A program made the position numbers and the translations under genes. Source: a virus. From it: a DNA stretch of 64,000 bases. Positions 27,189-58,889 of the stretch are shown piece after piece. The DNA is taken from IMG/VR virus record IMGVR_UViG_3300017971_000020; one strand, given 5' to 3'. The notes under the pieces are model-generated. The model was not told where the DNA came from. It saw nothing but the letters and a program-made list of their open reading frames with translations, and ran no database searches. Numbering within the stretch: position 1 is the stretch's first letter; each line of letters opens with the position of its first letter.

Positions 27189-27767
27189 ATGAAGAAACAA
27201 ATCATAATGGTGACAGGTCTTCCGCGAACGGGGTTGAATCTGGTGACGCGGATTGTCGAGCTTCTGGGTGTCCCAGGGCCGGAGGTCAGGGGGCGTCTAA
27301 AAAAGATAACGCCATCAGGCTATTTTACCGATATTCCTTTCCGCTCCGGGAAGGTGGATCGGGAAGCACCGTGGGTTTTCAAGAATTCAGGGTTTGCCTC
27401 GGAAGAAGAGGCGCAGAAATTCCTTGATATGAGTAACCTTGTTGTGATTGAATGTCGACGTGATCAGCTTGCCATTCAGCGGAGTTTGCACAGAGCCTGG
27501 TGCATACAGAATGAGATGGACCCAAAAGAATGGACGTTTGATAAGGCGAGTAAGAGTGTCCGGCACTATGTGCGTAAGTGGTCACATAGGGGGCATTACT
27601 TCTTGTCTAGGTGGAATGGCCCGAGGTTTATAGTGAGCTTTGAAGGCCTTATCGCAAAGCCGAGGCGGTACGTGAGGCGGATTTCGAGCTTTCTTGGCGT
27701 GGAACCATTGGATAAGGCGATAAAGCTTGTGAACCCGAAATGGGCGCATTTTAAGCCGAAGGTTTAG
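27189..27767 (+). CDS. sulfotransferase-like P-loop protein
   Basis: The N-terminal 'IIMVTGLPRTGLNLV' resembles the 5'-PSB loop (G-x-PR-[ST]-G). 'ECRRDQLAIQRSLH' resembles the 3'-PB motif. The true start is taken as ATG 27189, downstream of the terminator. Confidence 0.5.
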   Translation: MKKQIIMVTGLPRTGLNLVTRIVELLGVPGPEVRGRLKKITPSGYFTDIPFRSGKVDREAPWVFKNSGFASEEEAQKFLDMSNLVVIECRRDQLAIQRSLHRAWCIQNEMDPKEWTFDKASKSVRHYVRKWSHRGHYFLSRWNGPRFIVSFEGLIAKPRRYVRRISSFLGVEPLDKAIKLVNPKWAHFKPKV

Positions 27768-27782
27768 TATGTAGAGGATGAC

Positions 27783-28568
27783 ATGCATGCAACGATTTTG
27801 GCGGCGGGGTTTCAAACTAGATTAAACAAGTCACGACCAACACCCATGCTAGCGGCTGAGAAGCCGAAAGCATTGTTGCCATTAGGAGGCGGCGTTGCCT
27901 TAATTGATTTCCTAGTGAATTGGTTGGCATTGGATGCAGTGGGCTGTATTCACGTGGTTCATAATGCGATTCACGCACACCAGTTCATGCAATGGCACAA
28001 ATCGCTTCAGTGGCGCCCCACAAGGCGGCGTCGCGACCCTCCTTACATTCGGCTAAGGAATACTCGTGTAGAGCGCTTGATTGATCGTAGGGGGTCTGTA
28101 GGGGATCTGGCGTGGAATTTGGGGGAAGTCGGCTACACGAAGAAATACGGCCATATTATCGTTTTTGGTGATAATGTCTTTGTCGACCCTACTGTGGAGG
28201 AGTTGGTGGGAGATGGGGATGTTACGACAATCACCGCACGGCATAAGGGAACGCTTGCAAGACATAGTGGGTCATGTTTGGGCTGTATCGATGTTGTAAA
28301 GAACGAATTGGGGGAAACGGGTACGGGGGATTACCGGGTTGCCGGCCCTATTTATCTGGCGCCGCAAGACACTCTGAAGGTGCGGGAATATGCAAGGCTG
28401 TGTCAGTTGGCGGAGGTGCCCTGTGACGACTTTGTTCCCTTCCTTGGCTGGTTGAAGAAGGAGTCACCGATACGGGTAAAGGTGGCGCCGGGGGCGTTTT
28501 TCGATATTGGAACGGAAACCGATTTGCGCTTGGCGTTGAAGATGTTTGCAAGGGGGCCTGTTAATTAA
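27783..28568 (+). CDS. sugar-phosphate nucleotidyltransferase
   Basis: 'ATILAAGFQTRL...KPKALLPLGG' matches the (G)xGTRL...PK signature of NTP_transferase enzymes, with the second Gly replaced by Gln. Confidence 0.65.
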   Translation: MHATILAAGFQTRLNKSRPTPMLAAEKPKALLPLGGGVALIDFLVNWLALDAVGCIHVVHNAIHAHQFMQWHKSLQWRPTRRRRDPPYIRLRNTRVERLIDRRGSVGDLAWNLGEVGYTKKYGHIIVFGDNVFVDPTVEELVGDGDVTTITARHKGTLARHSGSCLGCIDVVKNELGETGTGDYRVAGPIYLAPQDTLKVREYARLCQLAEVPCDDFVPFLGWLKKESPIRVKVAPGAFFDIGTETDLRLALKMFARGPVN

Positions 28569-29224
28569 TGCGGTACCTTCAGGGAACGGTCACCCTTAGC
28601 CATCCAAGAAGTGGGCTGACATGGTTACGGTACACCTTTAGGAAATTGGGATACAAGCTTGAGGTCAATCATGCTGGGGTTGGGTTGGTAAGGACAAATG
28701 CAAGAACGCTGAGGATTGGAATTAAGCGTTGGGCCGGTCGGCGTGTTTTGTTTCTTGCTCGTGACCCCAGGGATATGCTTTTGTCTAATTGGCACGCTAT
28801 TGGGGATGCAGTTGACTGTGAAACGTTGGAAGATTTCTTGTTTAGCGAGCGATGGGGCGTAAAGCCCTTTCTTAAGTGGGTGAACTTCTGGTGGAAAAAT
28901 CGGGCATGGTTGGACGACCTACGGATTTTCCATTACGAGGATATGAAAGACGATTATAATAAGGTATTCCATGAGATTTTGGATTACGTGGAGGTATCGG
29001 TTGACGACCGAAAGATTGCGGCGGCAATTGAGGCGGCGTCATTTGATAGAATGAAACAAGCAGAAAGGCTTGGCCCATTGTTTCAAGATCTGGGCGGTGG
29101 TGTTGTAGCGGTTAGGCGTGGGGAGGTCGGCGCCTATCGGGACGAAATGAAGAAGGGGACGATAGATAGGCTTAATGCGGCGCTGAAAGATCTGCCGCCT
29201 ATGTTAGAAAGGTATCAATCATAG
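28568..29224 (+). CDS. sulfotransferase
   Basis: 'LSHPRSGLTWLRY' (5'-PSB, cf. PKSGTTW) and 'FLARDPRDMLLSNWH' (3'-PB, cf. RDPRDvavS). Confidence 0.75.
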   Translation: MRYLQGTVTLSHPRSGLTWLRYTFRKLGYKLEVNHAGVGLVRTNARTLRIGIKRWAGRRVLFLARDPRDMLLSNWHAIGDAVDCETLEDFLFSERWGVKPFLKWVNFWWKNRAWLDDLRIFHYEDMKDDYNKVFHEILDYVEVSVDDRKIAAAIEAASFDRMKQAERLGPLFQDLGGGVVAVRRGEVGAYRDEMKKGTIDRLNAALKDLPPMLERYQS

Positions 29225-29875
29225 ATGTGTGCAAAACAAAAGCCATATGGCGCAGTGACCCATGACGACTGGCGGCTGTTACATATGTCGTTAGACGAGG
29301 CAATAAAGGCGCATAGTATAAATGGCGGGTCATTTGTTGAAATCGGGACACTGAGTGCGAAGACAACAAAAGCGGTGGCGGAGGTACTCCATGACAACCG
29401 GGTTTTGAGTACATTGATAACAATCGACAAATCCCCGGCTGCACGGTCGGCTTTTGACGGACAGTTTAAAGATTGGTGGGGAACGGTTTCCGTTCAGTTT
29501 GTGCAAGGGCTGTCGAAAGACGTTTTAGGCGATTGGGACGACTTGAAGGTTGTTTGGGCATTTGTTGACGGTTGCCATTGTGAGGAGTGCGTTGCGGCGG
29601 ATATTGCTAATTTGATTCCGAAGATGGTGCCTGGTGGAGTGATTGTTTTTCATGACGCCGGCATTCAGGCAGCGTTGGGAATGACGGTGCACAAGAAGTA
29701 CCACGGCGACGGAAAGAAGAGACTGTATGGTGTAACAACGGCCATTGGGAAGAGTGAAGGATTGAAAGACTTCGAGCTATTGTATTCGTGCCAGGCAAAG
29801 CTAAGGCCGCCGAATGAGCCCACCCCCATATTCGGCGGGGTCCAGGTATGGCGAAAACCGTGGGCGGTAAATTAA
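29225..29875 (+). CDS. class I SAM methyltransferase (Methyltransf_24-like, DGCHCxxC subtype)
   Basis: 'FVEIGTLSAKTT' and 'FVDGCHCEECVAADIANLIPKMVPGGVIVFHD'. Confidence 0.7.
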   Translation: MCAKQKPYGAVTHDDWRLLHMSLDEAIKAHSINGGSFVEIGTLSAKTTKAVAEVLHDNRVLSTLITIDKSPAARSAFDGQFKDWWGTVSVQFVQGLSKDVLGDWDDLKVVWAFVDGCHCEECVAADIANLIPKMVPGGVIVFHDAGIQAALGMTVHKKYHGDGKKRLYGVTTAIGKSEGLKDFELLYSCQAKLRPPNEPTPIFGGVQVWRKPWAVN

Positions 29876-30441
29876 TGATAATAGAAGATAGGCAACAGGC
29901 CCCTTTATGGAAGCGTGCAAAAGTGCCGGAAAGAGACTACGCCGCAATTAACAACTATCGTCCGGAAATGTGGAAGCTAATAAAGGGACACCGCACTTCG
30001 TTCGAACAGATAGTTGTTGAAGTGGGGTCACGGCGGGGGGCATTTGCTTCTGGCTATTTGAAGCACTTCGACGACGATTTCCTTTTTTGTGTTGACACAT
30101 GGGCTGGGCGCCGGGGGCAAGGCGATTATCTGGCATGGTTACGCCGTGTCGAGCCATGGCTATATGACAGGTGTTACCCATTGCATGGGGAATCACTATT
30201 TCACGCTAAGGTATTTCCCTGTATGGCAAATGTCATTTTCATAGATGCCCTCCATGATTACGATAATGTTAAGAAAGATATATTGGCGTGGTATCCCTTA
30301 CTGGTTAAGGGTGGGCTATTTCTAATGCATGATTATCAGCAGCAGGGCGTGAAGGCGGCTGTAGATGAGATATTCCCCACCGTAACAACGGCATATTTGG
30401 GGATGCAGAAGGCTATTACCGCATGGGTTATCAAAGAATGA
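29875..30441 (+). CDS. class I SAM methyltransferase (Methyltransf_24-like)
   Basis: 'VVEVGSRRGAFASG' and 'FIDALHDYDNVKKDILAWYPLLVKGGLFLMHDY'. ATG 29875 overlaps the previous stop (TAATG). ATG 29848 is an alternative start. Confidence 0.7.
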   Translation: MIIEDRQQAPLWKRAKVPERDYAAINNYRPEMWKLIKGHRTSFEQIVVEVGSRRGAFASGYLKHFDDDFLFCVDTWAGRRGQGDYLAWLRRVEPWLYDRCYPLHGESLFHAKVFPCMANVIFIDALHDYDNVKKDILAWYPLLVKGGLFLMHDYQQQGVKAAVDEIFPTVTTAYLGMQKAITAWVIKE

Positions 30442-30448: not shown

Positions 30449-30832
30449 ATGGCGAAAGTAATCTGTTTCGATATAGACGGCGTATTGACGGTAGAAGCAA
30501 ATGCAAAGCACGACGATCTTGCGGGGTCATACATTTACCGCAGGCCTAACGACAGGGCACTGGAGGTAATAATGAAGGCCTATGACGCGGGCTGGTATGT
30601 GTTGCTGTTCACGGGGCGCCGGGAGGCACAGCGTCGGATTACGGAAGACTGGCTCCATGCACACAAGTTTCATTACCATGCATTAGTGATGGGCAAACCC
30701 TATTTCACATATGTGATTGACGATCGGATATTAGGTGCCACAGTAGATGACCAATTAGACGCGTTCGAGAAGATTATTGATACGAGCGCCAATGCATTGA
30801 AGGAGTTGTTTAATGGCGAACATCCACAATAG
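30449..30832 (+). CDS. HAD-superfamily phosphatase
   Basis: 'KVICFDIDGVLT' (motif I, DxDxV/T), 'LLFTGRRE' (motif II) and 'YVIDDR' (motif IV-like). Confidence 0.6.
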   Translation: MAKVICFDIDGVLTVEANAKHDDLAGSYIYRRPNDRALEVIMKAYDAGWYVLLFTGRREAQRRITEDWLHAHKFHYHALVMGKPYFTYVIDDRILGATVDDQLDAFEKIIDTSANALKELFNGEHPQ

Positions 30833-31589
30833 AAACTGCATAAAGGAGCATTGGGGGACACACAAGGGCGAAGATGCCTTTGTTATAGGAACAGGTACTT
30901 CTTTGACCGGTTTTAATTTCGCACGTCTTCGGGGCCGGCTAACCATAGGCCTGAATGACGCATTGAAGGTACCCGGGTTGGATTTGGCGTTTTCCATATT
31001 CTGTGATGTGGGAGTGTGGAAGCGATACAAAGATATGACGCTTCACCCAAGAACGCAATTGGTTTGCCAGAAGCGTGCCCGTGATCAATACCTTAGACAC
31101 GAAGGTTGTAAATTCATTGAGCAGCTATGGCACTTCAACCACGTATCACAGGCCCGGCAAATGCAAGAAGACAACGCTGACCTTTACGTTTCTCGTACCG
31201 TTGCGACGGCGGGAATTAGTATGGCGTGGAAGCTTGGCGCCCGGCGGATATTCTTGTTAGGGGTTGACGGGCACAAGCTGTCACGGCGAAGTAAGAAAAC
31301 CGGCAAAATGGAAGACGTGTATTATCATGATGGATCTTCGAAGGGGAAGGAGCGCCGGAAGTTCAAAGAGGTGAAGCTCGATAGCGATACCGTGAAGGTA
31401 ATCCAAGACCGTCATGAATGGTGGGTAAAAAACATGAAGGAGCTTCGGGACTACTTCGACAAGCGGAAACTGTATCCCGGGCCATGGCCGGGGCCTGGCA
31501 TATATACGCTAAACAAGATTTCTACGATAGAGCCTTGGCAAAAGCTAAAGGTGAAGACTGTGTTAGGAAAAGGGTGCTTCAAAGAATGA
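30813..31589 (+). CDS. DUF115/MptE-like (Maf-type) putative glycosyltransferase, paralog 1
   Basis: 'AFVIGTGTSL', 'IGLNDA' and 'VATAGISMAWKLGARRIFLLGVDG', shared with four paralogs. Confidence 0.6.
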   Translation: MANIHNRNCIKEHWGTHKGEDAFVIGTGTSLTGFNFARLRGRLTIGLNDALKVPGLDLAFSIFCDVGVWKRYKDMTLHPRTQLVCQKRARDQYLRHEGCKFIEQLWHFNHVSQARQMQEDNADLYVSRTVATAGISMAWKLGARRIFLLGVDGHKLSRRSKKTGKMEDVYYHDGSSKGKERRKFKEVKLDSDTVKVIQDRHEWWVKNMKELRDYFDKRKLYPGPWPGPGIYTLNKISTIEPWQKLKVKTVLGKGCFKE

Positions 31590-42725: not shown

Positions 42726-42726
42726 A

Positions 42727-45223: not shown

Positions 45224-45236
45224 TATAGATCTGCAA

Positions 45237-47440: not shown

Positions 47441-47460
47441 GAGAAAGACAGGGGGCGGAT

Positions 47461-51870: not shown

Positions 51871-52014
51871 TATACTCAGGTTATGCCATGGCAGTGTAGA
51901 GGCGGCATAGCTTAGGCAGATAGACTCCGGCAAGGCGGGATAGACCGGACCCGAAAAGAAGTGAAGAGCTATACGGATCCTCCTTTCCGCCTCTAATTAA
52001 AGGAGGGCCGATTA

Positions 52015-52472: not shown

Positions 52473-55400
52473 ATGGCTACGATATTTACTTGCGAAGTAG
52501 GCCCAGGGCAGACTGATTACACGTCATTCTCTGCGTGGGAATCAGCAGTAGACGGTAACTACACTTCATCGGGTACCATTATGGTATTCGGTGGTTCGCG
52601 TGTAGGATCTGTACCGGATGGGCAGAGTGTAACGGGGTCTAATTCAGGAGCGACAGGGACATGTTTGCACTGTACTGCTACACAAATTTGTGTGGTAGTG
52701 AACAGTGGGACGTTTGAGTCTGGGGAAGAAATACGGCGTAATGCATCGCATTACTTTTTGACATCTGATGCTGGTGATTCAGCAATTCCAAAAGCGGCAC
52801 TTGGCACAGATGGTGATGCGGAAGATGATCAATACTTTGGTGGTTGGACATTAGACTCGACCAACTATTGTATTCTTGCAGCTGCCTCGGGGCATGAGGC
52901 GCCAATAGATGGTTACGACTCAAATCTGTACCGATTTGAAACCGACACAACTAGTGGGTGGAAGGCGGCGCTTTATTTAGATGAAAACGATGTTCATGTA
53001 GAGAACTTACAGTTTAATAACTCCACTGGCTCTAACATGTGTATCGGGATACACGCTGCCTACGCTGGAGTTGTAGTTTCTGGCTGCCGTATCCATAAAA
53101 GTAATGGAACCTCTACATCTGCATATTACGGTATACGCTACTACGACGATATAGAGGTATATAACTCTGTCTTTGAAATGAAGACGTCGAGTAATACTAG
53201 AGGTCTATGGGCAGCTAGTGGGAATACCACCACAACAAAGATTTACAACAATGTCTTTAGAGGCGACGGTACAGGTACTGGATTTTATGGTCAGAGTGCA
53301 AATGCTGCGGTTCTTCGTAATAACTTCTTTTATGGGTTCAGCGACGACATGTTGCTGGAAAGCGGGGACACCAGCGACTACAACGCTTCAGACGACGGCG
53401 ATGGAACAAATGCATACACGGCTACAGACTTAGATGACAATTTTGTAGACGCTGCGAATGGTGATTTTACGCTGGTGTCTGGAGCTGGCGTTATTGGACA
53501 AGGCATAGGGCCTGGGGCAACTGACGGAACAGATGTCCCAACTACAGATATAGAAGGGACAACACGGTCTGGTACCACTTGTGATATCGGCGCTTATGAA
53601 TACCCATCAGTGGCAACGACAAGTGTATCTACAACAGCGTCGAGTTCTCTTTCAACAACAGCCAGCTCTTCTTACTCCAGCACCGCTTCAAGCTCGTATT
53701 CAAGCACAGCCAGCTCATCTTTTTCCTCTACGGCATCGACATCGGCTTCTGTTTCGCAAACCGACCCGCCATTATTTGACACAGAAACGTATTTGGAGAT
53801 CGATTCCGGAGATTTAACTGGTGGGACCGGTACAGTAATGGACGAGGTCTCCGGTATATGCCATGCGATTGACCGGGACTATATAGCCGTAGTTGACGAC
53901 AACGGCGCAATGAGGGAATACTCCCGACAATTTGAAGCGGTACAGGCTGGTGAAGTAAGTCTCCCCGGAGGCACTGGCGATGGGCAGTTTGACGATGTTG
54001 AGGGAATAGTCTATGTAGGTGACTGGTTTACCGATTGGGATTATTGCATATTAGACGAAGGTGATGGCACTAGCCCTACGCGCTTGCATTTCTTCCCATT
54101 TTCTCCAGGACAAACATCACTAAGCTCTGGGGATGTAACCACTTATGAATTACCTAAAATCCCCTTTTACTCAGGGACGTATGGTGGGGAGGGTGCCGAA
54201 GGTGTTGCGTTTGATCCAAATACCGGAAAGTTCTATGTGTCCAACCAGTCTGATACACAGGCGGATGCTGGTATTTGGGAAGTAGATATTACCGTTGCGG
54301 ACACTGACGGTAATCCTGAACATAACCTTTTGTATAGTTATGTCGGCGCCGGTATTGTTAACTCAACTGATGGCGTTGCCTCCCCCGTCGCGATAGCAGA
54401 TCTTTTCCATGGATCAATGATCGGTGGTGGGCTGTCTTATGATCGATCCCTGTTTATCCTATTTAGAGACACTACGGCCGATAGGCGGGTAGTTGTTCAG
54501 GTAGACACTAGTACCGGTACGGTTTTAGGCAGTCACCACCAGCACGGTTTAGCCGGGCAAGTGGAGGGGATGTGTTTTGATTCACTGGCATCCCGTGGAG
54601 ACCTGTTTGTTTGTGGCGAAGAAGCGTCTATGGGCGCGACGAATATCGTTCGCTATAGCTTTCAGGGAGGCGGCCCGTCGACTTCGCTGTCAACTTCTAT
54701 AACAACTACTGCTTCAACGTCAGCATCAGTTACTCCCCCTCCTGTTCCTGATACGGTTGTCGAGGTTGCTTTCGGGGCAAGTTGGCGCCATGACGACCAA
54801 AATATTGATCGTACGGATGATCAAACAGATGGCGCTTTTTATGACCTTGTGTACGATACATCAGACTGGACCTATCCTGAACAATCTGAAACAGATCATA
54901 ATGCCGCTTATTATTATGGTGCTATTAGTTCATTAGAGACGGATATCTCTCTGGGGACAAATATCCCTAGTCAGTCAGGCAATGCGGACACTCGGCCATT
55001 ATACTTCGTTCATGATTTTGAGCTGTCTAATGTTTCCGCAATCACAGAAGCATACATAGACCATCTGGGTGAAGACGGGATATATGTTTGGTTAAACGGG
55101 ACCCTATTAACTAGCGACAATGTTACAGGTGCATTTTCGCATGGTATGAATGCTGATAGTGCTAGAAGTCCCGAGGGGCAGTCAATAAAATACAACCTAG
55201 ACACAGATGAGCTTGACTTATTTATAGAAGGGACTAATAGGCTCGCTGCTGCAGTCATTGCTGTAAATAATACGAGTTCTGATGCTATTTTTGATATGCG
55301 GCTGGTTGTTACGAGGCTTGCTTCCGAGACAACATCAGTATCAACTACCGCTTCAAGCTCCTATAGCTCTACGGCTTCAAGCTCCTACAGTTCTACTGCC

Positions 55401-58400
55401 TCAAGCTCCTATAGTTCTACCGCTTCAAGCTCCTATAGCTCTACGGCTTCAAGCTCCTACAGTTCTACTGCCTCAAGCTCCTATAGTTCTACCGCTTCAA
55501 GCTCACTCAGCACCACAGCTTCAAGCTCTTACAGTTCTACAGCTTCAAGCTCCTACAGTTCTACTGCTTCAAGTTCCTACAGTTCTACCGCTTCAAGTTC
55601 CTACAGTTCTACCGCTTCAAGTTCTTATAGCTCTACGGCCTCAAGTTCACTTAGTACCACAGCCTCTTCCAGTGTTTCAACAGCTTCTACGCCGCCGTTA
55701 TTCTGTGCCGTTGCAGCGTTGTCTTCTACGGAGGAATATCTCGGGGTTCACTTTGAGACAGAAGAAGCTTCTGACGCTTATATAGAATATGGAGTAAGTG
55801 CTGGGACTTACATATATCAGACCACTACCCAAACAAACGAAACAAACTTTAGTTTCGAGATTGGTGGTACTGACTTTAGTCCCGGTGACATGGTTTATTA
55901 CCGGGCACGTATCCGGCTAACTGGTAGCGGTGTATATGCATTGGGAGTACCGCACAGGGCAAGGCTTGCTCGTGCATATTCTGATACGTCAGATTGGACG
56001 TGGGTTTTCGGCGCAGACTCACGAGCAGAAGCAGGCGTAGCAACATCGCCAGAATTTAAAAATGATTTCTGGCCGGCGGTTGGATATCCAGAATATCCCG
56101 ATGACGAATTTCTTGTGTTTGGCGGTGATTGGTTACAAACCGGCACTGGTACTGATTATTGGCGAGCAGCGAGAAATGATACACAAGGGATAGGCCTTGA
56201 AAACGAGAAAGGCGGCGACCTTCCTGTATTTCAAGTGGTTGGGAATCATGAGCGCGACGAGCTTACAGGGAACCGTGATGCCCGCGTAGACCTTTACCCA
56301 TTAGGCGTATTCCTTAACCTCCCATACCAGCAAAATGATACAGATGACCCGTCAGCCCCAGGTTGGTATCAGCGTTATTACTATCACACATGGGGCAATG
56401 CGTTATTCGTATATATGCCCGACGATCTTGATATATATGAAGACACGGATGGGTATATTCAGTGGCCCGCAATGCGGACCTGGTTTGAGGGTATTTGTGA
56501 ACAGTTCAAATATTACAAATGGAAGTTTGTAATTACCCATACCAGTTCAGATGAGTCTGATCCCAACCACACAAATACGATTGCTGATTATCCATCAAAC
56601 CAGGCATGGTTTAGAAACCTAATAGACGACTATGGGTTTACGGTTCATTGCCATGGCCACTACCATGGTTGGAGATGGCATGAGGCAACAGACGGTTGTA
56701 GAGTTGTATGTGGAAACTTCGGAGCCCCTGTAACACACACAACGGTTGATGAATGGGTATCCGGTGACCCTGAAGGAAGACGCTTCTGGCGCATTAGGAT
56801 GAACCAGGAGTGGATGGGAACCGATGGGTATGTCCATAATGCCGATGCCTGTACATGGGAATGTGTCGACCCATTATCAACAGATACTGAGGTAGAAGAG
56901 TATTACGTAGTATATGCCTCGGATAACCCAGCAGAATCAGGGACAACCAGCTTAACCTCCTCTATATCTACAACAGCTAGCTCATCGTTAAGTACAACAG
57001 CCAGTTCGTCTTACTCAACAACAGCGTCAAGCTCTTACTCCTCAACGGCGAGTTCTTCATATTCAAGTACCGCGTCAAGTTCCTTTAGTTCGACAGCCAG
57101 TTCTTCTTACTCAAGTACAAAGTCGAGTTCTTTTAGTACAACGGCCAGTTCGTCCTACTCAACAACGGCGTCAAGCTCTTACTCCTCAACGGCGAGTTCT
57201 TCCTACTCAAGTACGGCCAGTTCGTCCTACTCAACAACGGCGTCAAGTTCTTACTCCTCAACTGCGAGTTCGTCATATTCGAGTACCGCATCAAGCTCTT
57301 ATTCCACAACAGCCAGTTCTTCTTATTCAAGTACGGCCAGTTCGTCCTACTCAAGCACAGCGTCAAGTTCTTATTCGTCAACCGCCAGTTCTTCCTATTC
57401 AAGTACAGCGTCAAGCTCCCTTAGCACAACAGCCAGTTCTTCCTACTCCACTACCGCGTCGAGTTCTTATTCTTCAACGGCAAGTTCTTCATATTCAAGT
57501 ACTAAGAGTTCGTCATACTCAAGTACCGCATCAAGCTCCTTTTCAAGTAGTTACTCCAGCACAGCTTCCTCATCGTTAACGCTAAGTTCTACGTCCGCAA
57601 GTAGTTCTTTATCAACGACCGCCTCAAGCTCCCTATCCACAACTGCAAGTTCGTCATATTCAAGTACTAAGAGTTCGTCGTTCTCTAGCACTAAGTCAAG
57701 TTCATTTAGTTCGTCTGTAAGCACGTCATTTTCCAGCACGGCCAGTTCGTCATTTTCAAGCACTAAGTCAAGTTCTTTCAGTTCGACGAAGAGTTCGTCA
57801 TTCTCAAGTACCGCCTCAAGCTCGTATTCGTCAACAGCAAGTTCGTCGTACTCAAGCACAGCGTCAAGCTCGTATAGTTCGACTGTCTCGAGTTCATTGT
57901 CGACGACTATGTCGAGTTCCGTATCAACAACAAAGTCGAGTTCGGTGTCTACGACTGTTCCGTGGTATTACGCTTCGGAAATGGACATCACTGAAGATGA
58001 CGGTGTTACAGGGGTAATCGAGTATATAAGAGGTGTTGACGCTGACGAAGTTGTCGTCGACGAGGCTTCTTCCGAGCAGTTTAAGATAGAATTAAGATTT
58101 GGCCTTGCTGGACAAACGGTGTCATCCCCGAGTAGTGACCTGGACGTTTTAATCACGGGTTGGTATGACGGGGATGCATCGCATAACGTCAAACTTGAGC
58201 AATACAACTGGGCGACAACGGACTGGGACAGTGTTACCGCCAGCGCGACAGACTTCCCAAGCGTTGGGTCGGAGCAAAGCTACCAGTTCAAGCTGTTAAG
58301 TTCAGACACCGACAATACATACGAGGACACAGGGCGCATTTATCTACGGATTCACCATACCAGTAGTGGTGAATCTGATTACTATTTCCACCTTGACGAT

Positions 58401-58889
58401 GTCCATTTGGCAGGAACCGTTCCGACAACGTCAGCGTCAACGTCGGTTTCTTCCACCGTGTCAACGTCAGCATCGAGTTCGCTATCGAGTTCGGTTTCCA
58501 CAACGGCAAGTTCGTCTTATTCCAGTTCATTATCGTCAACGGTGTCAACGTCGGCGTCGAGTTCACTATCAAGCTCGGTTTCAACAACTGCGAGTTCGTC
58601 ATATTCCAGTACGGTATCAACGACTGCTTCTACCACCGCTTCGACGACAGCAAGCACTTCTGCAAGCACCACGGCAAGTTCCTCGGTATCGACAACAGCG
58701 TCAACGTCCGCTTCAAGTTCCGTATCAACGACAATGTCAAGCTCCTTCTCTTCTACCGGGTCGACTTCAATGTCAACGCCGATTCCACCGGAAGGAGCCT
58801 TTGACCTTTCATTAAGGGACGAGTCAATAAAACTTGCACTGCGTGACGAATCAATAAAATTAAGCTTACGGAGGCTTTCAGCGTTTTAG
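52473..58889 (+). CDS. giant (2138 aa) modular serine/threonine-repeat protein: beta-helix, propeller-like, beta-sandwich and purple-acid-phosphatase-like metallophosphoesterase domains separated by mucin-like repeats
   Basis: The N-terminal ~375 aa end in 'FVDAANGDFTLVSGAGVIGQG...DIEGTTR...CDIGAYEY', a typical right-handed beta-helix C-cap. 'GGDWLQTG', 'VVGNHERD', 'VITHTSS' and 'HCHGHYHGW' are metallophosphoesterase motifs II-V, preceded by an FN3-like 'YIEYGVSAG...YYRARI'. Four S/T-rich segments use the unit [ST]TASSS[YFL]S. There is no N-terminal signal peptide. Confidence 0.85.
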   Translation: MATIFTCEVGPGQTDYTSFSAWESAVDGNYTSSGTIMVFGGSRVGSVPDGQSVTGSNSGATGTCLHCTATQICVVVNSGTFESGEEIRRNASHYFLTSDAGDSAIPKAALGTDGDAEDDQYFGGWTLDSTNYCILAAASGHEAPIDGYDSNLYRFETDTTSGWKAALYLDENDVHVENLQFNNSTGSNMCIGIHAAYAGVVVSGCRIHKSNGTSTSAYYGIRYYDDIEVYNSVFEMKTSSNTRGLWAASGNTTTTKIYNNVFRGDGTGTGFYGQSANAAVLRNNFFYGFSDDMLLESGDTSDYNASDDGDGTNAYTATDLDDNFVDAANGDFTLVSGAGVIGQGIGPGATDGTDVPTTDIEGTTRSGTTCDIGAYEYPSVATTSVSTTASSSLSTTASSSYSSTASSSYSSTASSSFSSTASTSASVSQTDPPLFDTETYLEIDSGDLTGGTGTVMDEVSGICHAIDRDYIAVVDDNGAMREYSRQFEAVQAGEVSLPGGTGDGQFDDVEGIVYVGDWFTDWDYCILDEGDGTSPTRLHFFPFSPGQTSLSSGDVTTYELPKIPFYSGTYGGEGAEGVAFDPNTGKFYVSNQSDTQADAGIWEVDITVADTDGNPEHNLLYSYVGAGIVNSTDGVASPVAIADLFHGSMIGGGLSYDRSLFILFRDTTADRRVVVQVDTSTGTVLGSHHQHGLAGQVEGMCFDSLASRGDLFVCGEEASMGATNIVRYSFQGGGPSTSLSTSITTTASTSASVTPPPVPDTVVEVAFGASWRHDDQNIDRTDDQTDGAFYDLVYDTSDWTYPEQSETDHNAAYYYGAISSLETDISLGTNIPSQSGNADTRPLYFVHDFELSNVSAITEAYIDHLGEDGIYVWLNGTLLTSDNVTGAFSHGMNADSARSPEGQSIKYNLDTDELDLFIEGTNRLAAAVIAVNNTSSDAIFDMRLVVTRLASETTSVSTTASSSYSSTASSSYSSTASSSYSSTASSSYSSTASSSYSSTASSSYSSTASSSLSTTASSSYSSTASSSYSSTASSSYSSTASSSYSSTASSSYSSTASSSLSTTASSSVSTASTPPLFCAVAALSSTEEYLGVHFETEEASDAYIEYGVSAGTYIYQTTTQTNETNFSFEIGGTDFSPGDMVYYRARIRLTGSGVYALGVPHRARLARAYSDTSDWTWVFGADSRAEAGVATSPEFKNDFWPAVGYPEYPDDEFLVFGGDWLQTGTGTDYWRAARNDTQGIGLENEKGGDLPVFQVVGNHERDELTGNRDARVDLYPLGVFLNLPYQQNDTDDPSAPGWYQRYYYHTWGNALFVYMPDDLDIYEDTDGYIQWPAMRTWFEGICEQFKYYKWKFVITHTSSDESDPNHTNTIADYPSNQAWFRNLIDDYGFTVHCHGHYHGWRWHEATDGCRVVCGNFGAPVTHTTVDEWVSGDPEGRRFWRIRMNQEWMGTDGYVHNADACTWECVDPLSTDTEVEEYYVVYASDNPAESGTTSLTSSISTTASSSLSTTASSSYSTTASSSYSSTASSSYSSTASSSFSSTASSSYSSTKSSSFSTTASSSYSTTASSSYSSTASSSYSSTASSSYSTTASSSYSSTASSSYSSTASSSYSTTASSSYSSTASSSYSSTASSSYSSTASSSYSSTASSSLSTTASSSYSTTASSSYSSTASSSYSSTKSSSYSSTASSSFSSSYSSTASSSLTLSSTSASSSLSTTASSSLSTTASSSYSSTKSSSFSSTKSSSFSSSVSTSFSSTASSSFSSTKSSSFSSTKSSSFSSTASSSYSSTASSSYSSTASSSYSSTVSSSLSTTMSSSVSTTKSSSVSTTVPWYYASEMDITEDDGVTGVIEYIRGVDADEVVVDEASSEQFKIELRFGLAGQTVSSPSSDLDVLITGWYDGDASHNVKLEQYNWATTDWDSVTASATDFPSVGSEQSYQFKLLSSDTDNTYEDTGRIYLRIHHTSSGESDYYFHLDDVHLAGTVPTTSASTSVSSTVSTSASSSLSSSVSTTASSSYSSSLSSTVSTSASSSLSSSVSTTASSSYSSTVSTTASTTASTTASTSASTTASSSVSTTASTSASSSVSTTMSSSFSSTGSTSMSTPIPPEGAFDLSLRDESIKLALRDESIKLSLRRLSAF
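53616..53756 (+). repeat. S/T-rich linker 1 (~47 aa) within the giant gene
   Basis: Translates to TTSVSTTASSSLSTTASSSYSSTASSSYSSTASSSFSSTASTSASVS. Confidence 0.9.
55329..55691 (+). repeat. S/T octapeptide repeat array A (121 aa; 24-nt unit, 72-nt higher-order unit)
   Basis: Exact 72-nt duplication, 55347-55418 = 55419-55490. The peptide is (STASSSYS)n with TTASSSLS variants. Confidence 0.95.
56943..57956 (+). repeat. S/T octapeptide repeat array B (338 aa)
   Basis: About 40 consecutive 8-aa units ([ST]T[AK]SSS[YFL]S), encoded with a different serine codon mix (AGT/TCG/TCT-rich) from array A. Confidence 0.95.
58425..58778 (+). repeat. S/T-rich repeat array C (118 aa, less regular)
   Basis: TTSASTSVSSTVSTSASSSLSSSVSTTASSSYS... 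with an internal ~31-aa duplication (STVSTSASSSLSSSVSTTASSSYSS). Confidence 0.9.

What the first reader, a model, noticed from the sequence alone, without database searches (positions are those of the whole stretch)
27189..58889. Phage-encoded protein glycosylation/sulfation/methylation system (~25 kb, ~35 genes) coupled to a giant mucin-like Ser/Thr-repeat protein, inside the head-morphogenesis module
A co-directional, tightly packed block lies between the coat gene (ends 27114, followed by a strong terminator) and the remaining head genes (from 58899). Many of its starts and stops overlap (ATGA/TAATG/GTGA). By motif, it encodes: 2 sulfotransferases; a sugar-1-P nucleotidyltransferase; a HAD phosphatase; a GHMP sugar kinase; a NeuB-type nonulosonic-acid synthase; a CMP-NulO synthetase; an SDR epimerase/dehydratase; 5 DUF115/MptE (Maf-type) proteins; 3 GT-B and 2 GT2 glycosyltransferases; and 11 class I SAM methyltransferases. 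Directly after the block comes a 2138-aa ORF in which about 30% of residues form [ST]TASSS[YFL]S repeats. By eye, no ORF in the block has a multi-TM profile (no Wzx/Wzy/WaaL/ABC or polyprenyl-P transferase look-alike). The giant protein also has no signal peptide. The most economical reading is therefore cytoplasmic O-glycosylation of this protein, not capsule or O-antigen conversion. Partial precedents are known: Maf plus NulO flagellin glycosylation islands, GtfA/B glycosylation of Gram-positive serine-rich-repeat adhesins, mycobacteriophage virion glycosylation, and giant-virus fibril glycosylation. I know of no described tailed phage that carries a sialic-like, sulfated and methylated glycan toolkit together with its own mucin-like substrate.
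Basis: partly seen in the sequence, partly recalled or inferred. Interest (0 to 1): 0.95.

Follow-up and report, generated by a model that had tools for sequence, protein, structure and literature searches.

The report
Phage-encoded glycosylation factory with mucin-like fibres
An uncultured ~90 kb tailed phage appears to spend close to half of its genome on a soluble sugar-making, sugar-transferring, methylating and sulfating enzyme set plus two giant Ser/Thr-repeat proteins. This pairing is conserved in related phages and most likely builds heavily glycosylated, mucin-like virion fibres, which has not been described for any bacteriophage.

Summary
Between the coat gene (26176-27114, followed by a 15-bp-stem terminator hairpin) and the head-completion genes (from 58899) lie about 35 co-directional, overlapping ORFs with no predicted membrane helices. 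HMM, profile or structure searches support:
- 2 sulfotransferases, a sugar-1-P nucleotidyltransferase, a HAD phosphatase and an HddA-like GHMP kinase;
- a NeuB-family synthase, a CMP-sugar synthetase and an SDR epimerase/dehydratase;
- 5 DUF115/MptE-like proteins, whose profile matches the GT42 sialyltransferase CstII;
- one GT4-like GT-B glycosyltransferase (AlphaFold2/Foldseek), 2 GT2 glycosyltransferases and 11 SAM methyltransferases.

Two of the three claimed GT-B enzymes are unconfirmed.

The 2138-aa ORF is 32% Ser/Thr tracts, which separate globular domains.

New findings:
- The whole cassette plus a Ser/Thr-repeat giant protein recurs in six phage lineages, each with its own repeat motif (STASSSYS, STTRSSSV, STSQSTTR, STSR).
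- It is absent from 21 cassette-less relatives of the coat protein.
- Identical STASSSYS units are only 62% identical in DNA, so selection acts on the peptide.
- The same genome has a second giant protein (3640 aa, just outside the window) with the same motif.
- One relative lies inside a Latescibacterota chromosome.

The glycosylation target remains inferred. No isolate phage or paper describing this was found.

The parts
16..240 (+). C-terminal fragment of a sixth DUF115/MptE-like gene (255 aa in the full genome), cut by the window start
   Evidence: Window position 1 corresponds to L015 position 9394, inside gene 8866-9633, which carries a faint PF01973 hit. It matches the MptE-like gene of L013.
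20580..21467 (+). GT-B-like (Glyco_trans_1_2) gene displaced upstream of the terminase; its homologues sit inside the cassette in relatives
   Evidence: Pfam 22.9 bits, below the cutoff. tblastn matches lie within the cassette at L002 12693-14550 and L001 15199-15816.
21645..22178 (+).
   Evidence: Pfam 61.7 bits.
26176..27114 (+). Major capsid protein (P22-like coat, 312 aa, no insertion domain); upstream boundary of the cassette
   Evidence: Pfam P22_CoatProtein 78.8 bits and PHROG major head protein E 2.7e-52.
27137..27170 (+). Terminator-like hairpin (15-bp stem, 8 GC pairs, T-rich tail) directly after the coat gene
27189..27767 (+). PAPS-type sulfotransferase 1 (weak support)
   Evidence: Sulfotransfer_1 22.7 bits (cutoff 22) and Sulfotransfer_3 23.6 bits. 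A PRTG motif is visible.
27783..28568 (+). Sugar-1-phosphate nucleotidyltransferase
   Evidence: The consensus ILAAGxGTRL...PKPLLP is present. Profile A9 hits glucose-1-P thymidylyltransferase at E 6e-6. No Pfam hit.
28568..29224 (+). PAPS-type sulfotransferase 2
   Evidence: Sulfotransfer_1 55.8 bits. PRSG and RDPRD motifs are visible.
29225..29875 (+). Methyltransf_24 (TylF/CmcI-like O-methyltransferase type)
   Evidence: 58.1 bits.
29848..30441 (+). Methyltransf_24 methyltransferase
   Evidence: 44.8 bits.
30449..30832 (+). Small HAD-superfamily phosphatase; the most conserved small gene of the cassette (72-74% identity in relatives)
   Evidence: LNS2-type HAD 31.3 bits. A weak HAD-IIIA hit. 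tblastn.
30813..31589 (+). DUF115/MptE-like, sialyltransferase-like glycosyltransferase
   Evidence: PF01973 25.5 bits, below the cutoff. Family profile A5 hits CstII at E 2.9e-4. The AF2 model has pLDDT 96.5. BFVD matches phage MptE-like proteins at E 1e-9 and viral GT29 at E 5e-3. Foldseek against the PDB found nothing significant.
31418..32236 (+). Methyltransf_24 methyltransferase (true start probably near 31600)
   Evidence: 64.6 bits. Homology to relatives starts at about residue 68.
32236..33258 (+). DUF115/MptE-like protein
   Evidence: PF01973 19.1 bits, weak. Orthologues in L001, L002, L003 and L019.
33011..33757 (+). Methyltransf_24 methyltransferase (start uncertain; overlaps the previous ORF)
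   Evidence: 50.4 bits.
33738..34727 (+). GHMP sugar kinase, closest to heptose-7-phosphate kinase HddA
   Evidence: GHMP_kinases_N 41.1 bits. NCBIfam HddA E 2e-19 over the full length, far below the equivalog cutoff.
34720..35370 (+). Methyltransf_24 methyltransferase
   Evidence: 69.4 bits.
35346..36011 (+). Methyltransf_24 methyltransferase
   Evidence: 33.6 bits.
36011..36979 (+). Conserved unknown protein, paralogue of 38690; possible GT-B, unconfirmed
   Evidence: No Pfam, PHROG or NCBIfam hit. Profile A7 gives a weak PglA hit at E 0.03. hhalign against the GT-B family is not significant.
37137..37460 (+). Small Cys-rich (zinc-ribbon-like) protein conserved in all cassette lineages, including the minimal ones
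   Evidence: Sequence. Homologues in L003, L017 and L019.
37457..38164 (+). DUF115/MptE-like protein
   Evidence: PF01973 17.8 bits, weak. It aligns with the 30813 family.
38127..38693 (+). Methyltransf_11-type SAM methyltransferase
   Evidence: 34.8 bits.
38690..39724 (+). Conserved unknown protein (50-52% identity in relatives); possible GT-B, unconfirmed
39880..40665 (+). CMP-ulosonic/nonulosonic acid synthetase-like cytidylyltransferase
   Evidence: CTP_transf_3 51.8 bits. NCBIfam PseF 79 bits, below the cutoff.
40643..41185 (+). Methyltransf_11/23 methyltransferase
   Evidence: 33.8 bits.
41182..42039 (+). NeuB-family (nonulosonic acid synthase-type) PEP-condensing enzyme without the C-terminal SAF domain
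   Evidence: PF03102 175.3 bits. NeuB_NnaB 168.8 bits and PseI 125.5 bits, both far below the equivalog cutoffs, with the match ending at model position 268 of 329.
42024..42725 (+). Methyltransf_11/25 methyltransferase
   Evidence: 32.6 bits.
42718..43620 (+). DUF115/sialyltransferase-like protein
   Evidence: PHROG alpha-2,3-sialyltransferase 28.6 bits. hhalign to the 30813 family gives probability 94.6%, E 7e-8.
43617..44240 (+). Methyltransf_23 methyltransferase
   Evidence: 41.6 bits.
44138..45223 (+). NAD-dependent SDR sugar-nucleotide epimerase/dehydratase
   Evidence: Epimerase 123.2 bits and GDP_Man_Dehyd 82.1 bits.
45318..45560 (+). Small unknown ORF at the start of the second sub-operon (after the 94-nt gap)
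   Evidence: No hits.
45557..47440 (+). GT4-like GT-B glycosyltransferase with a C-terminal extension of about 170 aa; the most conserved cassette enzyme (55-58% identity) and present in the minimal cassettes
   Evidence: The AF2 model has pLDDT 85. Foldseek against the PDB hits GlgM, MshA, WaaG and BshA at E 5e-12 to 1e-8. Distant homologues carry PF00534 or PF13692.
47332..48087 (+). Methyltransf_23/31 methyltransferase
   Evidence: 59.2 bits.
48084..48947 (+). GT2 glycosyltransferase
   Evidence: Glycos_transf_2 51.7 bits.
48944..49189 (+). Small unknown ORF
   Evidence: No hits.
49186..49887 (+). DUF115/MptE-like protein; the only one above the Pfam gathering score
   Evidence: PF01973 39.9 bits against a cutoff of 34.6. 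hhalign to the 30813 family gives probability 98.9%, E 1.9e-17.
49880..50557 (+). Conserved unknown protein (43-51% identity in relatives)
50554..51870 (+). GT2 glycosyltransferase (438 aa), last enzyme of the cassette (57-65% identity in relatives)
   Evidence: Glycos_transf_2 41.5 bits. tblastn.
52075..52461 (+). Unknown 128-aa ORF directly upstream of the giant gene
   Evidence: No hits.
52473..58889 (+). Giant protein 1 (2138 aa). Its globular domains are a beta-helix-like N-terminal domain, an SdiA-regulated-type propeller, an unknown domain, a calcineurin-like metallophosphoesterase and another unknown domain. They are separated by Ser/Thr octamer tracts. The protein ends in a short conserved tail.
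   Evidence: Sequence. Metallophos 28.9 bits when the domain is scanned alone. Only 2 homologues were found in 5.8 billion proteins. The orthologue in L017 is 61% identical over the phosphoesterase domain.
53601..53765 (+). Ser/Thr tract 1 (aa 377-431)
54669..54740 (+). Ser/Thr tract 2 (aa 733-756)
55311..55700 (+). Ser/Thr tract 3 (aa 947-1076), a regular STASSSYS array
   Evidence: TRF reports a 24-nt period with 86% matches.
56928..57965 (+). Ser/Thr tract 4 (aa 1486-1831), the longest array
   Evidence: TRF reports a 24-nt period with only 58-66% matches.
58410..58787 (+). Ser/Thr tract 5 (aa 1980-2105)
58899..61065 (+). Downstream boundary: a 121-aa Ig-like(?) protein, a 128-aa head-tail adaptor-like protein and a 468-aa minor head protein
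   Evidence: Homologues of the first two follow the giant gene in L017.

Best explanation
The cassette is a phage-encoded protein glycosylation system that works in the host cytoplasm and is expressed with the late (virion) genes.

Sugar donors. Soluble enzymes make activated sugars through two branches. One is a CMP-activated nonulosonic or ulosonic acid (NeuB-family synthase plus cytidylyltransferase). The other is an NDP-sugar, possibly heptose-like (HddA-like kinase, HAD phosphatase, nucleotidyltransferase, SDR).

Transfer and tailoring. A set of soluble glycosyltransferases then builds O-glycans directly on the Ser/Thr octamer tracts of the phage's own giant multidomain proteins. The set comprises a conserved GT4-like GT-B enzyme, two GT2 enzymes and five or six DUF115/GT42-like sialyltransferase-type enzymes. 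Eleven SAM methyltransferases and two PAPS sulfotransferases tailor the glycans.

Substrates. Giant 1 is in the window and giant 2 (3640 aa) lies just outside it. The glycosylated tracts would act as stiff, extended, protease-resistant, mucin-like spacers. They would hold out globular binding and enzymatic domains (beta-helix, propeller, metallophosphoesterase) on head- and tail-associated fibres.

Shown here: the enzyme families, the lack of membrane or export parts, the conserved coupling to Ser/Thr-repeat giant proteins, and selection on the repeat peptide.

Inferred: the acceptor, the glycan composition, the presence of the giant proteins in virions, and the biological benefit.
For: 1. Enzyme families are verified by Pfam, NCBIfam, PHROG, profile searches and AF2/Foldseek.
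2. No transmembrane segment occurs in any cassette ORF. No Wzx, Wzy, ABC transporter, oligosaccharyltransferase or polyprenyl-P transferase family is hit.
3. The cassette lies inside the late operon, between the coat gene and the head-completion genes. This holds in the window, in two IMG/VR contigs and in a Latescibacterota chromosome.
4. A Ser/Thr-repeat giant ORF follows or lies near the cassette in 6 of 6 lineages where that region is visible: window, L011, L012, L013, L017 and L018. No such ORF and no cassette homologue occurs within 10 kb of the coat gene in 21 more distant coat relatives.
5. The repeat motif is lineage-specific: STASSSYS, STTRSSSV, STSQSTTR and STSR. Within the window genome, both giant proteins share the same motif.
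6. The 23 identical STASSSYS units average 62% nucleotide identity (minimum 38%) and use all six Ser codons. The peptide, not the DNA repeat, is therefore what is maintained.
7. No other protein of the phage has such tracts, including the tape measure and other tail proteins.
8. Established knowledge offers precedents. DUF115 is the catalytic domain of the Maf flagellin nonulosonic-acid transferases. GT4 GT-B enzymes (GtfA) start O-glycosylation of serine-rich-repeat adhesins in the cytoplasm. Mycobacteriophage capsid and tail-tube proteins carry glycans made by phage glycosyltransferases (as summarised in PMC12619734).
Against: - There is no direct evidence that any protein is glycosylated.
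- The DUF115 proteins are short catalytic cores without Maf-type substrate-binding domains. By profile they are nearest to CstII, which extends glycans rather than modifying proteins.
- Foldseek against the PDB found no significant match for the high-confidence DUF115 model.
- The nonulosonic-acid pathway is incomplete and the NeuB homologue lacks the SAF domain.
- In every lineage, including the minimal cassettes of L003 and L019, the cassette directly follows the coat gene. In those two, no giant repeat protein is visible within the DNA held. The coat protein could therefore be the target.
- Ser/Thr tracts can be plain flexible linkers.
- The giant proteins have not been shown to be in the virion.
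Confidence: 0.6

Rival explanations
1. The cassette glycosylates other virion proteins, such as the major capsid protein encoded directly upstream or the tail proteins, as in mycobacteriophages. The Ser/Thr tracts of the giant proteins are then merely unmodified flexible linkers that happen to be encoded nearby.
For: The cassette begins directly after the coat gene in every lineage, including the minimal versions L003 and L019 (coat, then DUF115, small Cys-rich protein, DUF115, GT-B). In mycobacteriophages, phage glycosyltransferases modify capsid and tail-tube subunits (PMC12619734). The coat of the cassette-bearing clade lacks the insertion of about 150 aa found in cassette-less relatives. 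Its surface is therefore different.
Against: The coat has no Ser/Thr-rich segment (the richest 30-aa window is 30% Ser/Thr). This rival does not explain the 6-of-6 co-occurrence with giant repeat proteins. It does not explain the lineage-specific motif shared by two giant proteins in one genome. It does not explain the purifying selection on the octamer peptide. The two targets are also not mutually exclusive.
Confidence: 0.17
2. The cassette makes or modifies a host cell-surface glycoconjugate (capsule, LPS, S-layer or flagellin glycan). This would serve lysogenic conversion or superinfection exclusion and would use host export machinery.
For: One relative lies inside a 4.3-Mb Latescibacterota chromosome record, so a temperate lifestyle is possible. 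Distant homologues of the GT-B enzyme (36-37% identity) sit in ordinary bacterial polysaccharide loci. NeuB, CMP-synthetase and DUF115 islands normally serve bacterial surface structures (established knowledge).
Against: No initiating polyprenyl-phosphate transferase, flippase, polymerase, ABC transporter or any membrane protein is found in about 35 genes. The cassette is embedded in the late structural operon between the coat and head-completion genes, not placed as a moron with its own regulation. It co-varies with phage-encoded repeat proteins.
Confidence: 0.1
3. The cassette hypermodifies phage DNA with sugars and methyl groups to evade restriction.
For: Phages are known to glycosylate hydroxymethylated bases with diverse glycans (bioRxiv 10.1101/2023.12.21.572611, seen). 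The phage also encodes two DNA methyltransferases (MT-A70 at 8045-9070 and N6_N4_Mtase at 14514-15662).
Against: Among the window ORFs scanned, no hydroxymethylase, TET/JBP-type dioxygenase, thymidylate-synthase-like enzyme or other base-activating enzyme was found. The cassette sits in the late structural operon, not the replication module. Nonulosonic-acid and sulfotransferase enzymes have no known role in DNA modification (my knowledge).
Confidence: 0.03

Closest known systems
Flagellin O-glycosylation islands (Maf/DUF115 transferases plus pseudaminic or legionaminic acid biosynthesis) of Campylobacter, Helicobacter, Aeromonas and Magnetospirillum
   Same: DUF115 (PF01973) catalytic domains are encoded next to a NeuB-family synthase and a CMP-sugar synthetase. 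All parts are soluble, and the predicted mode is cytoplasmic O-glycosylation of Ser/Thr on a surface-exposed filament protein before assembly.
   Different: Here the DUF115 proteins are 230-340 aa cores without the N- and C-terminal domains of Maf. There are five or six paralogues. The acceptor is not flagellin but low-complexity octamer tracts in phage proteins. The aminotransferase and acetyltransferase steps of the pathway were not detected. The system is viral.
Serine-rich-repeat adhesin (SRRP) glycosylation in Gram-positive bacteria (GtfA/GtfB plus accessory glycosyltransferases; Fap1, GspB, PsrP, SraP)
   Same: Both have giant fibrillar proteins with hundreds of Ser-rich short repeats flanking globular binding domains. 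A cytoplasmic GT4-type GT-B enzyme works with GT2-type extension enzymes encoded next to the substrate gene.
   Different: There is no signal peptide, no LPXTG anchor and no accessory SecA2/SecY2/Asp export system. The enzyme set is far larger and adds nonulosonic-type sugars, methylation and sulfation. Orthology of the GT-B enzyme to GtfA was not shown.
Mycobacteriophage virion glycosylation (phage glycosyltransferases modifying capsid and tail-tube C-termini; Freeman et al. 2023, as cited in PMC12619734)
   Same: A tailed phage encodes glycosyltransferases that modify its own structural proteins in the host cytoplasm.
   Different: Those phages carry a few glycosyltransferases and rely on host sugar nucleotides, and the targets are short C-terminal segments of major structural proteins. 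Here there are about 35 genes, including donor biosynthesis and tailoring enzymes, plus dedicated giant mucin-like substrates.
Giant-virus fibril glycosylation (Mimivirus and relatives) and chlorovirus capsid glycosylation
   Same: The virus encodes its own sugar-nucleotide pathways, glycosyltransferases and methyltransferases to decorate its own surface fibrils, independently of host membrane glycosylation routes.
   Different: Those are eukaryote-infecting nucleocytoviruses with genomes above 300 kb. Here the same strategy would be packed into a tailed phage of about 90 kb and would occupy nearly half of the genome.
GT42 lipooligosaccharide sialyltransferases (Campylobacter CstI/CstII)
   Same: This is the best solved-structure sequence match for the DUF115 family (E 2.9e-4 over about 185 residues). 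The N-terminal GxGxSL motif, the central GxDxY segment and a nearly invariant His are shared.
   Different: The similarity is marginal and was not recovered by Foldseek. CstII acts on lipid-linked oligosaccharide at the membrane, whereas no lipid-linked pathway is present here.

Membership tests
Maf (motility-associated factor) flagellin nonulosonic-acid transferases | Central DUF115/MptE-like domain (PF01973) | tested here: met
   49186 scores 39.9 bits against a cutoff of 34.6. 30813, 32236 and 37457 score 17.8-25.5 bits, below the cutoff. hhalign links 49186 and 42718 to the 30813 family at 98.9% and 94.6%.
Maf (motility-associated factor) flagellin nonulosonic-acid transferases | Multidomain protein of about 600-700 aa with N- and C-terminal domains flanking the catalytic core (from knowledge of PDB 5mu5, 666 aa) | tested here: not met
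   The ORFs are 233-340 aa. The AF2 model of 30813 is a single compact domain.
Maf (motility-associated factor) flagellin nonulosonic-acid transferases | Detectable sequence or structure similarity to a solved Maf (5mu5) | tested here: inconclusive
   Profile A1 hits 5mu5 at E 0.03 over 27 residues only. Foldseek against the PDB gives no significant hit.
Maf (motility-associated factor) flagellin nonulosonic-acid transferases | Genomic linkage to CMP-nonulosonic acid biosynthesis genes | tested here: met
   NeuB (175 bits) and CTP_transf_3 (52 bits) lie in the same operon.
Maf (motility-associated factor) flagellin nonulosonic-acid transferases | Flagellin as acceptor | tested here: not met
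   No flagellin gene occurs in the window or in related loci (Pfam). The candidate acceptors are phage Ser/Thr-repeat proteins.
GT42 sialyltransferases (CstII-like) | Sequence similarity across the catalytic domain, with the N-terminal nucleotide-binding Gly motif and a catalytic His | tested here: met
   Profile A5 hits CstII at E 2.9e-4, positions 22-206 against 5-208. G26, G28, S30, L31, D152 and H201 are invariant or nearly invariant in 45 homologues. H201 aligns within about 2 residues of the CstII His of 'IGHSKN'. The similarity is marginal in strength.
GT42 sialyltransferases (CstII-like) | Fold-level match to solved GT42 structures | tested here: not met
   Foldseek against the PDB gives a best E of 0.2, to unrelated Rossmann-type proteins. 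In BFVD there are only weak matches to viral GT29 sialyltransferases, E 5e-3.
NeuB/PseI/LegI nonulosonic acid synthases | NeuB TIM-barrel domain (PF03102) | tested here: met
   175.3 bits over 237 of 241 model positions. The EIGINHNG motif is visible.
NeuB/PseI/LegI nonulosonic acid synthases | C-terminal SAF/antifreeze-like domain and equivalog-level score | tested here: not met
   The protein is 285 aa and the match ends at model position 268 of 329. It scores 168.8 bits against a cutoff of 399.65 (NeuB) and 125.5 against 340.25 (PseI).
Complete pseudaminic or legionaminic acid pathway | 4,6-dehydratase, aminotransferase, N-acetyltransferase, hydrolase/2-epimerase, synthase and CMP-synthetase all present | tested here: not met
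   Only an SDR, the synthase and the cytidylyltransferase were found. No DegT-type aminotransferase and no acetyltransferase occurs in the window cassette. A more distant lineage, L019, does carry DegT and an acetyltransferase.
SRRP glycosylation system (GtfA/GtfB plus aSec) | Giant protein with long Ser-rich short-period repeats next to glycosyltransferase genes, including a GT4 GT-B enzyme | tested here: met
SRRP glycosylation system (GtfA/GtfB plus aSec) | Accessory Sec export (SecA2/SecY2/Asp), an N-terminal signal peptide and a cell-wall anchor on the substrate | tested here: not met
   No such Pfam families and no transmembrane segments were found. The N-terminus MATIFTCEVGPGQTDY has no hydrophobic core.
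Wzx/Wzy-, ABC- or synthase-dependent polysaccharide loci | Membrane initiating transferase, flippase/polymerase or transporter | tested here: not met
   The Kyte-Doolittle scan finds no transmembrane helices in any ORF from 27135 to 62688. No such Pfam family is hit.
GDP-D-glycero-alpha-D-manno-heptose pathway (GmhA, HddA, GmhB, HddC) | HddA-type GHMP kinase, HAD-IIIA phosphatase, nucleotidyltransferase and SIS isomerase | tested here: inconclusive
   The best NCBIfam hit of the kinase is HddA, at E 2e-19 and 70 bits against a cutoff of 600. The HAD-IIIA hit is weak, at 17 bits. The nucleotidyltransferase profile hits RmlA better than HddC. No GmhA is present.
Phage virion glycosylation (mycobacteriophage type) | Glycans demonstrably attached to virion proteins | not testable with these tools
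   This requires virion glycoproteomics.

The most novel reading that the evidence does not exclude
A clade of uncultured tailed phages of about 90-110 kb carries a self-sufficient 'viral mucin' programme. At least one member is integrated in a Latescibacterota chromosome. Nearly half of each genome encodes donor-sugar synthesis, about ten glycosyltransferases, about a dozen methyltransferases and, in this lineage, sulfotransferases. Together with lineage-specific Ser/Thr sequon arrays in giant head- and tail-associated proteins, these would give the virion a phage-made glycocalyx containing acidic nonulosonic sugars, methylated and sulfated. This would be the bacteriophage counterpart of Mimivirus fibrils. 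The short DUF115 enzymes would then be a new class of protein- or glycan-directed nonulosonic-acid transferases whose recognition motif co-evolves with the repeat.
Probability: 0.45. Interest if true: 0.92.

Novelty: new variant of a known kind. Interest (0 to 1): 0.85.

Why it matters
If true, the known scope of bacteriophage virion glycosylation grows considerably. What is known today is a few glycosyltransferases acting on capsid and tail termini in mycobacteriophages. This would be an autonomous system of about 35 genes with its own donor pathways, tailoring chemistry and dedicated mucin-like substrates.

It would provide:
- a compact, soluble, membrane-independent toolkit for O-glycosylating designed Ser/Thr sequons with unusual sugars, of interest for glycoengineering;
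- a natural experiment in the co-evolution of enzyme and sequon, with four repeat dialects in related phages;
- a new idea of how environmental phages might shield themselves or move through polysaccharide-rich matrices;
- a first handle on phage-host biology in the uncultured phylum Latescibacterota.

Tried and rejected
- Nucleotide (megablast) search of 22184-47000 against 50,697 GenBank phage records found no match. The large terminase is at most 28% identical to any isolate phage.
- The GT-B enzyme has no homologue in that collection, and NeuB occurs in only three uncultured or unclear records.
- Single-sequence PDB searches of 45557, 42718, 38690 and the phosphoesterase domain gave only noise.
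- The profile of 45557 against PDB sequences found nothing. Only AF2 plus Foldseek revealed the GT-B fold.
- Foldseek of the DUF115 model against the PDB gave no significant match, although the model is of high confidence.
- hhalign of the 36011/38690 family against the GT-B family was not significant. The 49880 family found nothing in the PDB.
- The search for related loci in viral contigs found nothing with the NeuB protein or the minor head protein as query.
- Exact-product look-ups failed for 61066-62688 and 63210-63539.
- Eight literature searches found no description of such a phage system. The terms covered phage with nonulosonic acid, Maf, pseudaminic acid, NeuB, virion glycosylation, serine-rich, DUF115 and O-glycosylated. 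The Freeman et al. 2023 paper is not held in the library.
- DNA hypermodification was considered and rejected for lack of base-activating enzymes.
- An artefactual ORF from antisense or frameshifted repeats was rejected. Conserved globular domains lie in the same frame on both sides of every tract, and orthologues exist.
- No tRNA genes occur in the window.

Full report
WHAT THE WINDOW IS. All substantial ORFs lie on the + strand. The early part encodes:
- an SNF2 helicase (608-2362);
- a primase-polymerase (3936-6053);
- a UvrD helicase (6287-7927);
- two DNA methyltransferases, MT-A70 (8045-9070) and N6_N4 (14514-15662).

The late part starts with:
- the large terminase (22184-23512);
- the portal (23524-25125; PHROG E 6e-53);
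- a probable scaffold protein (25210-26133);
- a P22-like coat protein (26176-27114).

This is a tailed phage. No GenBank phage is close: megablast finds nothing, and the terminase is at most 28% identical to that of any isolate.

The exact genome is present in public metagenome assemblies as contigs of 89,962 and 90,243 bp. Window position 1 maps to position 9394 of locus L015. Downstream of the window come tail genes, including a 1581-aa tape measure protein. The genome is therefore about 90 kb, and the window covers 64 kb of it. I infer that it is circularly permuted or circular, because the coordinates only fit that way.

CHECK OF THE OBSERVATION. The block from 27189 to 51870 is tightly packed and co-directional. 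Gaps are mostly -1, -4 or -8 nt. There are only two real intergenic gaps, 94 nt at 45224 and 204 nt at 51871. Immediately after the coat stop codon there is a hairpin with a 15-bp stem, 8 GC pairs and a T-rich tail (27137-27170). It is by far the strongest terminator-like site in 40 kb.

The enzyme calls fared as follows.
- Sulfotransferases: 28568 scores 55.8 bits. 27189 scores 22.7 bits, at the cutoff. Both show PAPS-binding-type motifs.
- Nucleotidyltransferase 27783: missed by Pfam, but its consensus with two orthologues reads ILAAGxGTRL...PKPLLP. The profile hits RmlA-type enzymes at E 6e-6.
- HAD phosphatase 30449.
- GHMP kinase 33738: its best named relative is the heptose-7-phosphate kinase HddA (E 2e-19, far below the equivalog cutoff).
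- Cytidylyltransferase 39880: CTP_transf_3, PseF-like.
- NeuB-family synthase 41182: 175 bits, but 285 aa without the SAF domain.
- SDR epimerase/dehydratase 44138: 123 bits.
- GT2 enzymes 48084 and 50554.
- Eleven SAM methyltransferases: six Methyltransf_24 and five Methyltransf_11/23.

No ORF has a predicted membrane helix.

THE DUF115 PROTEINS. One of them (49186) passes the Pfam gathering score for PF01973. Three (30813, 32236, 37457) score below it.

I collected 66 homologues of 30813, nearly all from metagenomic contigs. The resulting profile hits the Campylobacter GT42 sialyltransferase CstII at E 2.9e-4 across about 185 residues. The N-terminal GxGxSL motif, a central GVDGY/GIDFY segment and a nearly invariant His line up. 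A smaller profile also touched the solved Maf 5mu5, at E 0.03. Profile-profile comparison ties 49186 (98.9%) and 42718 (94.6%) to the same family. PHROGs independently calls 42718 an alpha-2,3-sialyltransferase-like protein.

An AlphaFold2 model of 30813 is very confident (pLDDT 96.5). Even so, Foldseek against the PDB found nothing significant. Against viral predicted structures it matched many 'uncultured Caudovirales' MptE-like proteins (E about 1e-9) and, weakly, viral GT29 sialyltransferases (E 5e-3).

I conclude that these are sialyltransferase-like DUF115 enzymes. They are short catalytic cores (233-340 aa), not full-length Maf proteins. Whether they act on protein or on a growing glycan is open.

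THE GT-B ENZYME. ORF 45557-47440 had no HMM hit. It has 96 homologues, and the distant ones carry Glycos_transf_1 domains. Its AlphaFold2 model (pLDDT 85) matches the GT4 retaining GT-B enzymes GlgM, MshA, WaaG and BshA at E 5e-12 to 1e-8. It is the best conserved enzyme of the cassette (55-58% identity). It is also retained in the minimal cassettes of more distant phages. The other two 'GT-B' candidates (36011, 38690) remain unconfirmed.

THE GIANT PROTEIN. The 2138-aa ORF has five Ser/Thr tracts (681 aa, 32%), made mostly of [ST]TASSS[YFLV]S octamers (59 strict copies). The tracts separate five globular regions:
- an N-terminal region that looks beta-helix-like (repetitive N-x-x-F/Y-x-G segments, ending in CDIGAYEY, with a weak DUF5123 hit);
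- a propeller of the SdiA-regulated type;
- an unknown domain;
- a calcineurin-like metallophosphoesterase (28.9 bits when scanned alone);
- another unknown domain.

A short C-terminal tail follows. With the repeats removed, the protein has only two homologues among 5.8 billion proteins.

COMPARATIVE EVIDENCE (THE DECISIVE PART). Three kinds of related loci carry the cassette.
- Two IMG/VR contigs (coat 71% identical) carry the entire cassette in the same order directly after the coat gene, at 25-74% protein identity. In both, the last GT2 gene is followed by a giant ORF whose globular domains are separated by Ser/Thr octamers of a different sequence, STTRSSSV/STTKSTTK.
- A relative inside the 4.3-Mb record CP070677.1 (Candidatus Latescibacterota) has the same order. 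It runs through a 1503-aa giant protein with the same propeller, unknown and phosphoesterase domains (61% identity over the last). Its C-terminal tail is similar and its motif is a third one, STSQSTTR. Homologues of window ORFs 58899 and 59264 follow.
- A 104.5-kb contig (L013) that also carries the cassette enzymes (P0005, P0105) has a 1707-aa STTRSSSV protein at the end of the late operon. A more distant lineage (L018, GT-B 44% identical) has an ORF with more than 100 STSR repeats 2.3 kb past its GT2 genes.

By contrast, 21 loci with more distant coat homologues (33-40% identity) show neither cassette homologues nor Ser/Thr giant proteins within 10 kb of the coat gene. These include prophages in Planctomycetota, Nitrospinales and Glycomyces.

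In the window genome itself, a second giant ORF of 3640 aa ends 3.7 kb upstream of window position 1. It uses the same TASSSYSS/ASSSLSTT octamers between five copies of a domain of about 170 aa. A sixth DUF115 gene follows it, and its last 74 codons are window ORF 16-240. No other protein of the phage has Ser/Thr tracts.

Finally, the 23 units encoding exactly STASSSYS are on average only 62% identical at the DNA level (minimum 38%) and use all six serine codons. TRF sees only 58-88% matches. The peptide is therefore under selection and is not a by-product of recent slippage.

INTERPRETATION. Four features point to direct cytoplasmic O-glycosylation of the Ser/Thr tracts of the phage's own giant proteins:
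- a soluble enzyme set with no lipid-carrier or export component;
- placement in the late operon;
- conserved coupling to phage proteins with long Ser/Thr arrays;
- lineage-specific but peptide-conserved repeats.

The glycans would be tailored by methylation and, in this lineage, sulfation. The sugar donors would be a CMP-activated (non)ulosonic acid and an NDP-sugar, possibly heptose-like. Both assignments are at family level only.

The giant proteins look like modular fibres carrying binding or enzymatic domains. Giant 1 sits among the head genes. Giant 2 sits where tail fibres are usually encoded. Their presence in the virion is inferred from gene position only.

Adding up the parts gives about 44 kb of about 90 kb:
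- the cassette, 24.7 kb;
- the displaced GT-like and methyltransferase genes (20580-22178);
- the sixth DUF115 gene;
- the two giant genes, 6.4 and 10.9 kb.

RIVALS. The coat protein or other virion proteins may be the acceptor, or an additional acceptor. Adjacency to the coat gene is universal, and in the two minimal cassettes (L003, L019) no giant protein is visible in the DNA held. This rival does not explain the repeat evidence. Host-surface modification is disfavoured by the absence of any membrane machinery and by the late-operon position. DNA hypermodification is disfavoured by the absence of base-activating enzymes.

COMPARISON WITH WHAT IS KNOWN. Functionally the system combines features of four known systems:
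- flagellin glycosylation islands (DUF115 plus NeuB plus CMP-synthetase);
- serine-rich-repeat adhesin glycosylation (GT4 GT-B plus GT2 enzymes acting on giant Ser-rich proteins);
- mycobacteriophage virion glycosylation;
- giant-virus fibril glycosylation.

It is not a member of the Maf family in the strict sense, because the architecture test failed. It is not an SRRP/aSec system, because there is no export apparatus. It is not a complete Pse or Leg pathway. Eight literature searches of 8 million open-access papers and preprints found no description of a comparable phage system. The GT-B enzyme is absent from 50,697 GenBank phage records.

VERDICT. I rate it a new and much more elaborate variant of virus-encoded virion glycosylation, of high interest.

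Noticed in passing
Outside the window: L015 1-5703 (ENA ERZ27256798 k141_2638555), ending 3.7 kb upstream of window position 1: A second giant ORF (3640 aa according to the record's gene call; the C-terminal 1900 aa were read here). It has the same STASSSYS/TTASSSLS tracts, five copies of a domain of about 170 aa, and a C-terminal domain shared with P0001. ORFs of 550, 187 and 313 aa follow, then a sixth DUF115 gene.
   Followed up: partly
L017 (GenBank CP070677.1, Candidatus Latescibacterota bacterium, 1,965,103-1,986,842): A syntenic relative of the cassette, the giant protein and the head-completion genes lies mid-way in a 4.3-Mb chromosome record. This suggests a prophage and hence a Latescibacterota host for this phage clade. 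Integration borders could not be examined.
   Followed up: partly
window 27189-27767 and 28568-29224, compared with L001 11090-11788: The two sulfotransferases have no homologue in the visible parts of the two closest relatives, where the first gene after the coat gene is a methyltransferase. The window lineage has uncharged, Tyr-containing repeats (40 Tyr in the tracts). The relatives have Arg/Lys-rich repeats. This may link sulfation (of sugar or of tyrosine) to the charge of the repeats. It rests on one lineage only.
   Followed up: partly
window 26176-27114, compared with L004-L010 and L021-L031: The coat protein of the cassette-bearing clade is 312-319 aa. More distant relatives (33-40% identity) carry an insertion of about 150 aa between residues about 230 and 240, in the position of the P22 I-domain. 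Loss or absence of this surface domain coincides with presence of the cassette.
   Followed up: no
window 20580-21467 and 21645-22178: A GT-B-like gene and a Methyltransf_24 gene sit just upstream of the terminase. Homologues of the GT-like gene lie inside the cassette in the relatives.
   Followed up: partly
window 37137-37460: A small Cys-rich (CxxC...C..GCHFH) protein of 107 aa is conserved in every cassette lineage, including the minimal ones (L003, L019) and L017. It always lies next to DUF115 genes. Its function is unknown; it could be an adaptor or zinc-ribbon partner.
   Followed up: no
window 32236-33258 / 33011-33757: The longest ORFs overlap by 190-248 nt. Homology of the upstream DUF115 protein to its orthologues stops at about residue 257 of 340, while homology of the downstream methyltransferase starts inside the overlap. 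This could be a real long overlap, a non-conserved C-terminal tail or a sequencing frameshift.
   Followed up: no
L016 603-5054 and L018 18125-21352: In the public gene calls, several short minus-strand 'genes' are called across the Ser/Thr-repeat regions in place of the long plus-strand ORF. Such giant repeat proteins are therefore likely under-reported in protein databases.
   Followed up: no
window 58788-58886, compared with L017 about 21040-21184: The C-terminal tails of about 35-45 aa of the two orthologous giant proteins resemble each other: PIPPEGAFDLSLRDESIKLALRDESIKLSL versus PPPIGALNFELRDLSTILDIRSSD. They contain an internal short repeat and might be the attachment element to the particle.
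   Followed up: no
L019 (Logan SRR6242095_11420, 3637-24995): A more distant cassette (coat 48.5% identical) carries different tailoring genes: 2OG-Fe(II) oxygenases, a DUF115-GT2 fusion, Sulfotransfer_2, a DegT aminotransferase, an acetyltransferase and GT9. The cassette is therefore a variable, modular toolkit across the clade.
   Followed up: no
P0002 (Logan contig, 7990 bp): A 1250-aa protein shares the N-terminal beta-helix-like domain (42% identity). It has SSSSSSESxSVS repeats like those of Gram-positive SRRPs, plus a LamG/DUF2341-like region. Its genomic context was not examined.
   Followed up: no
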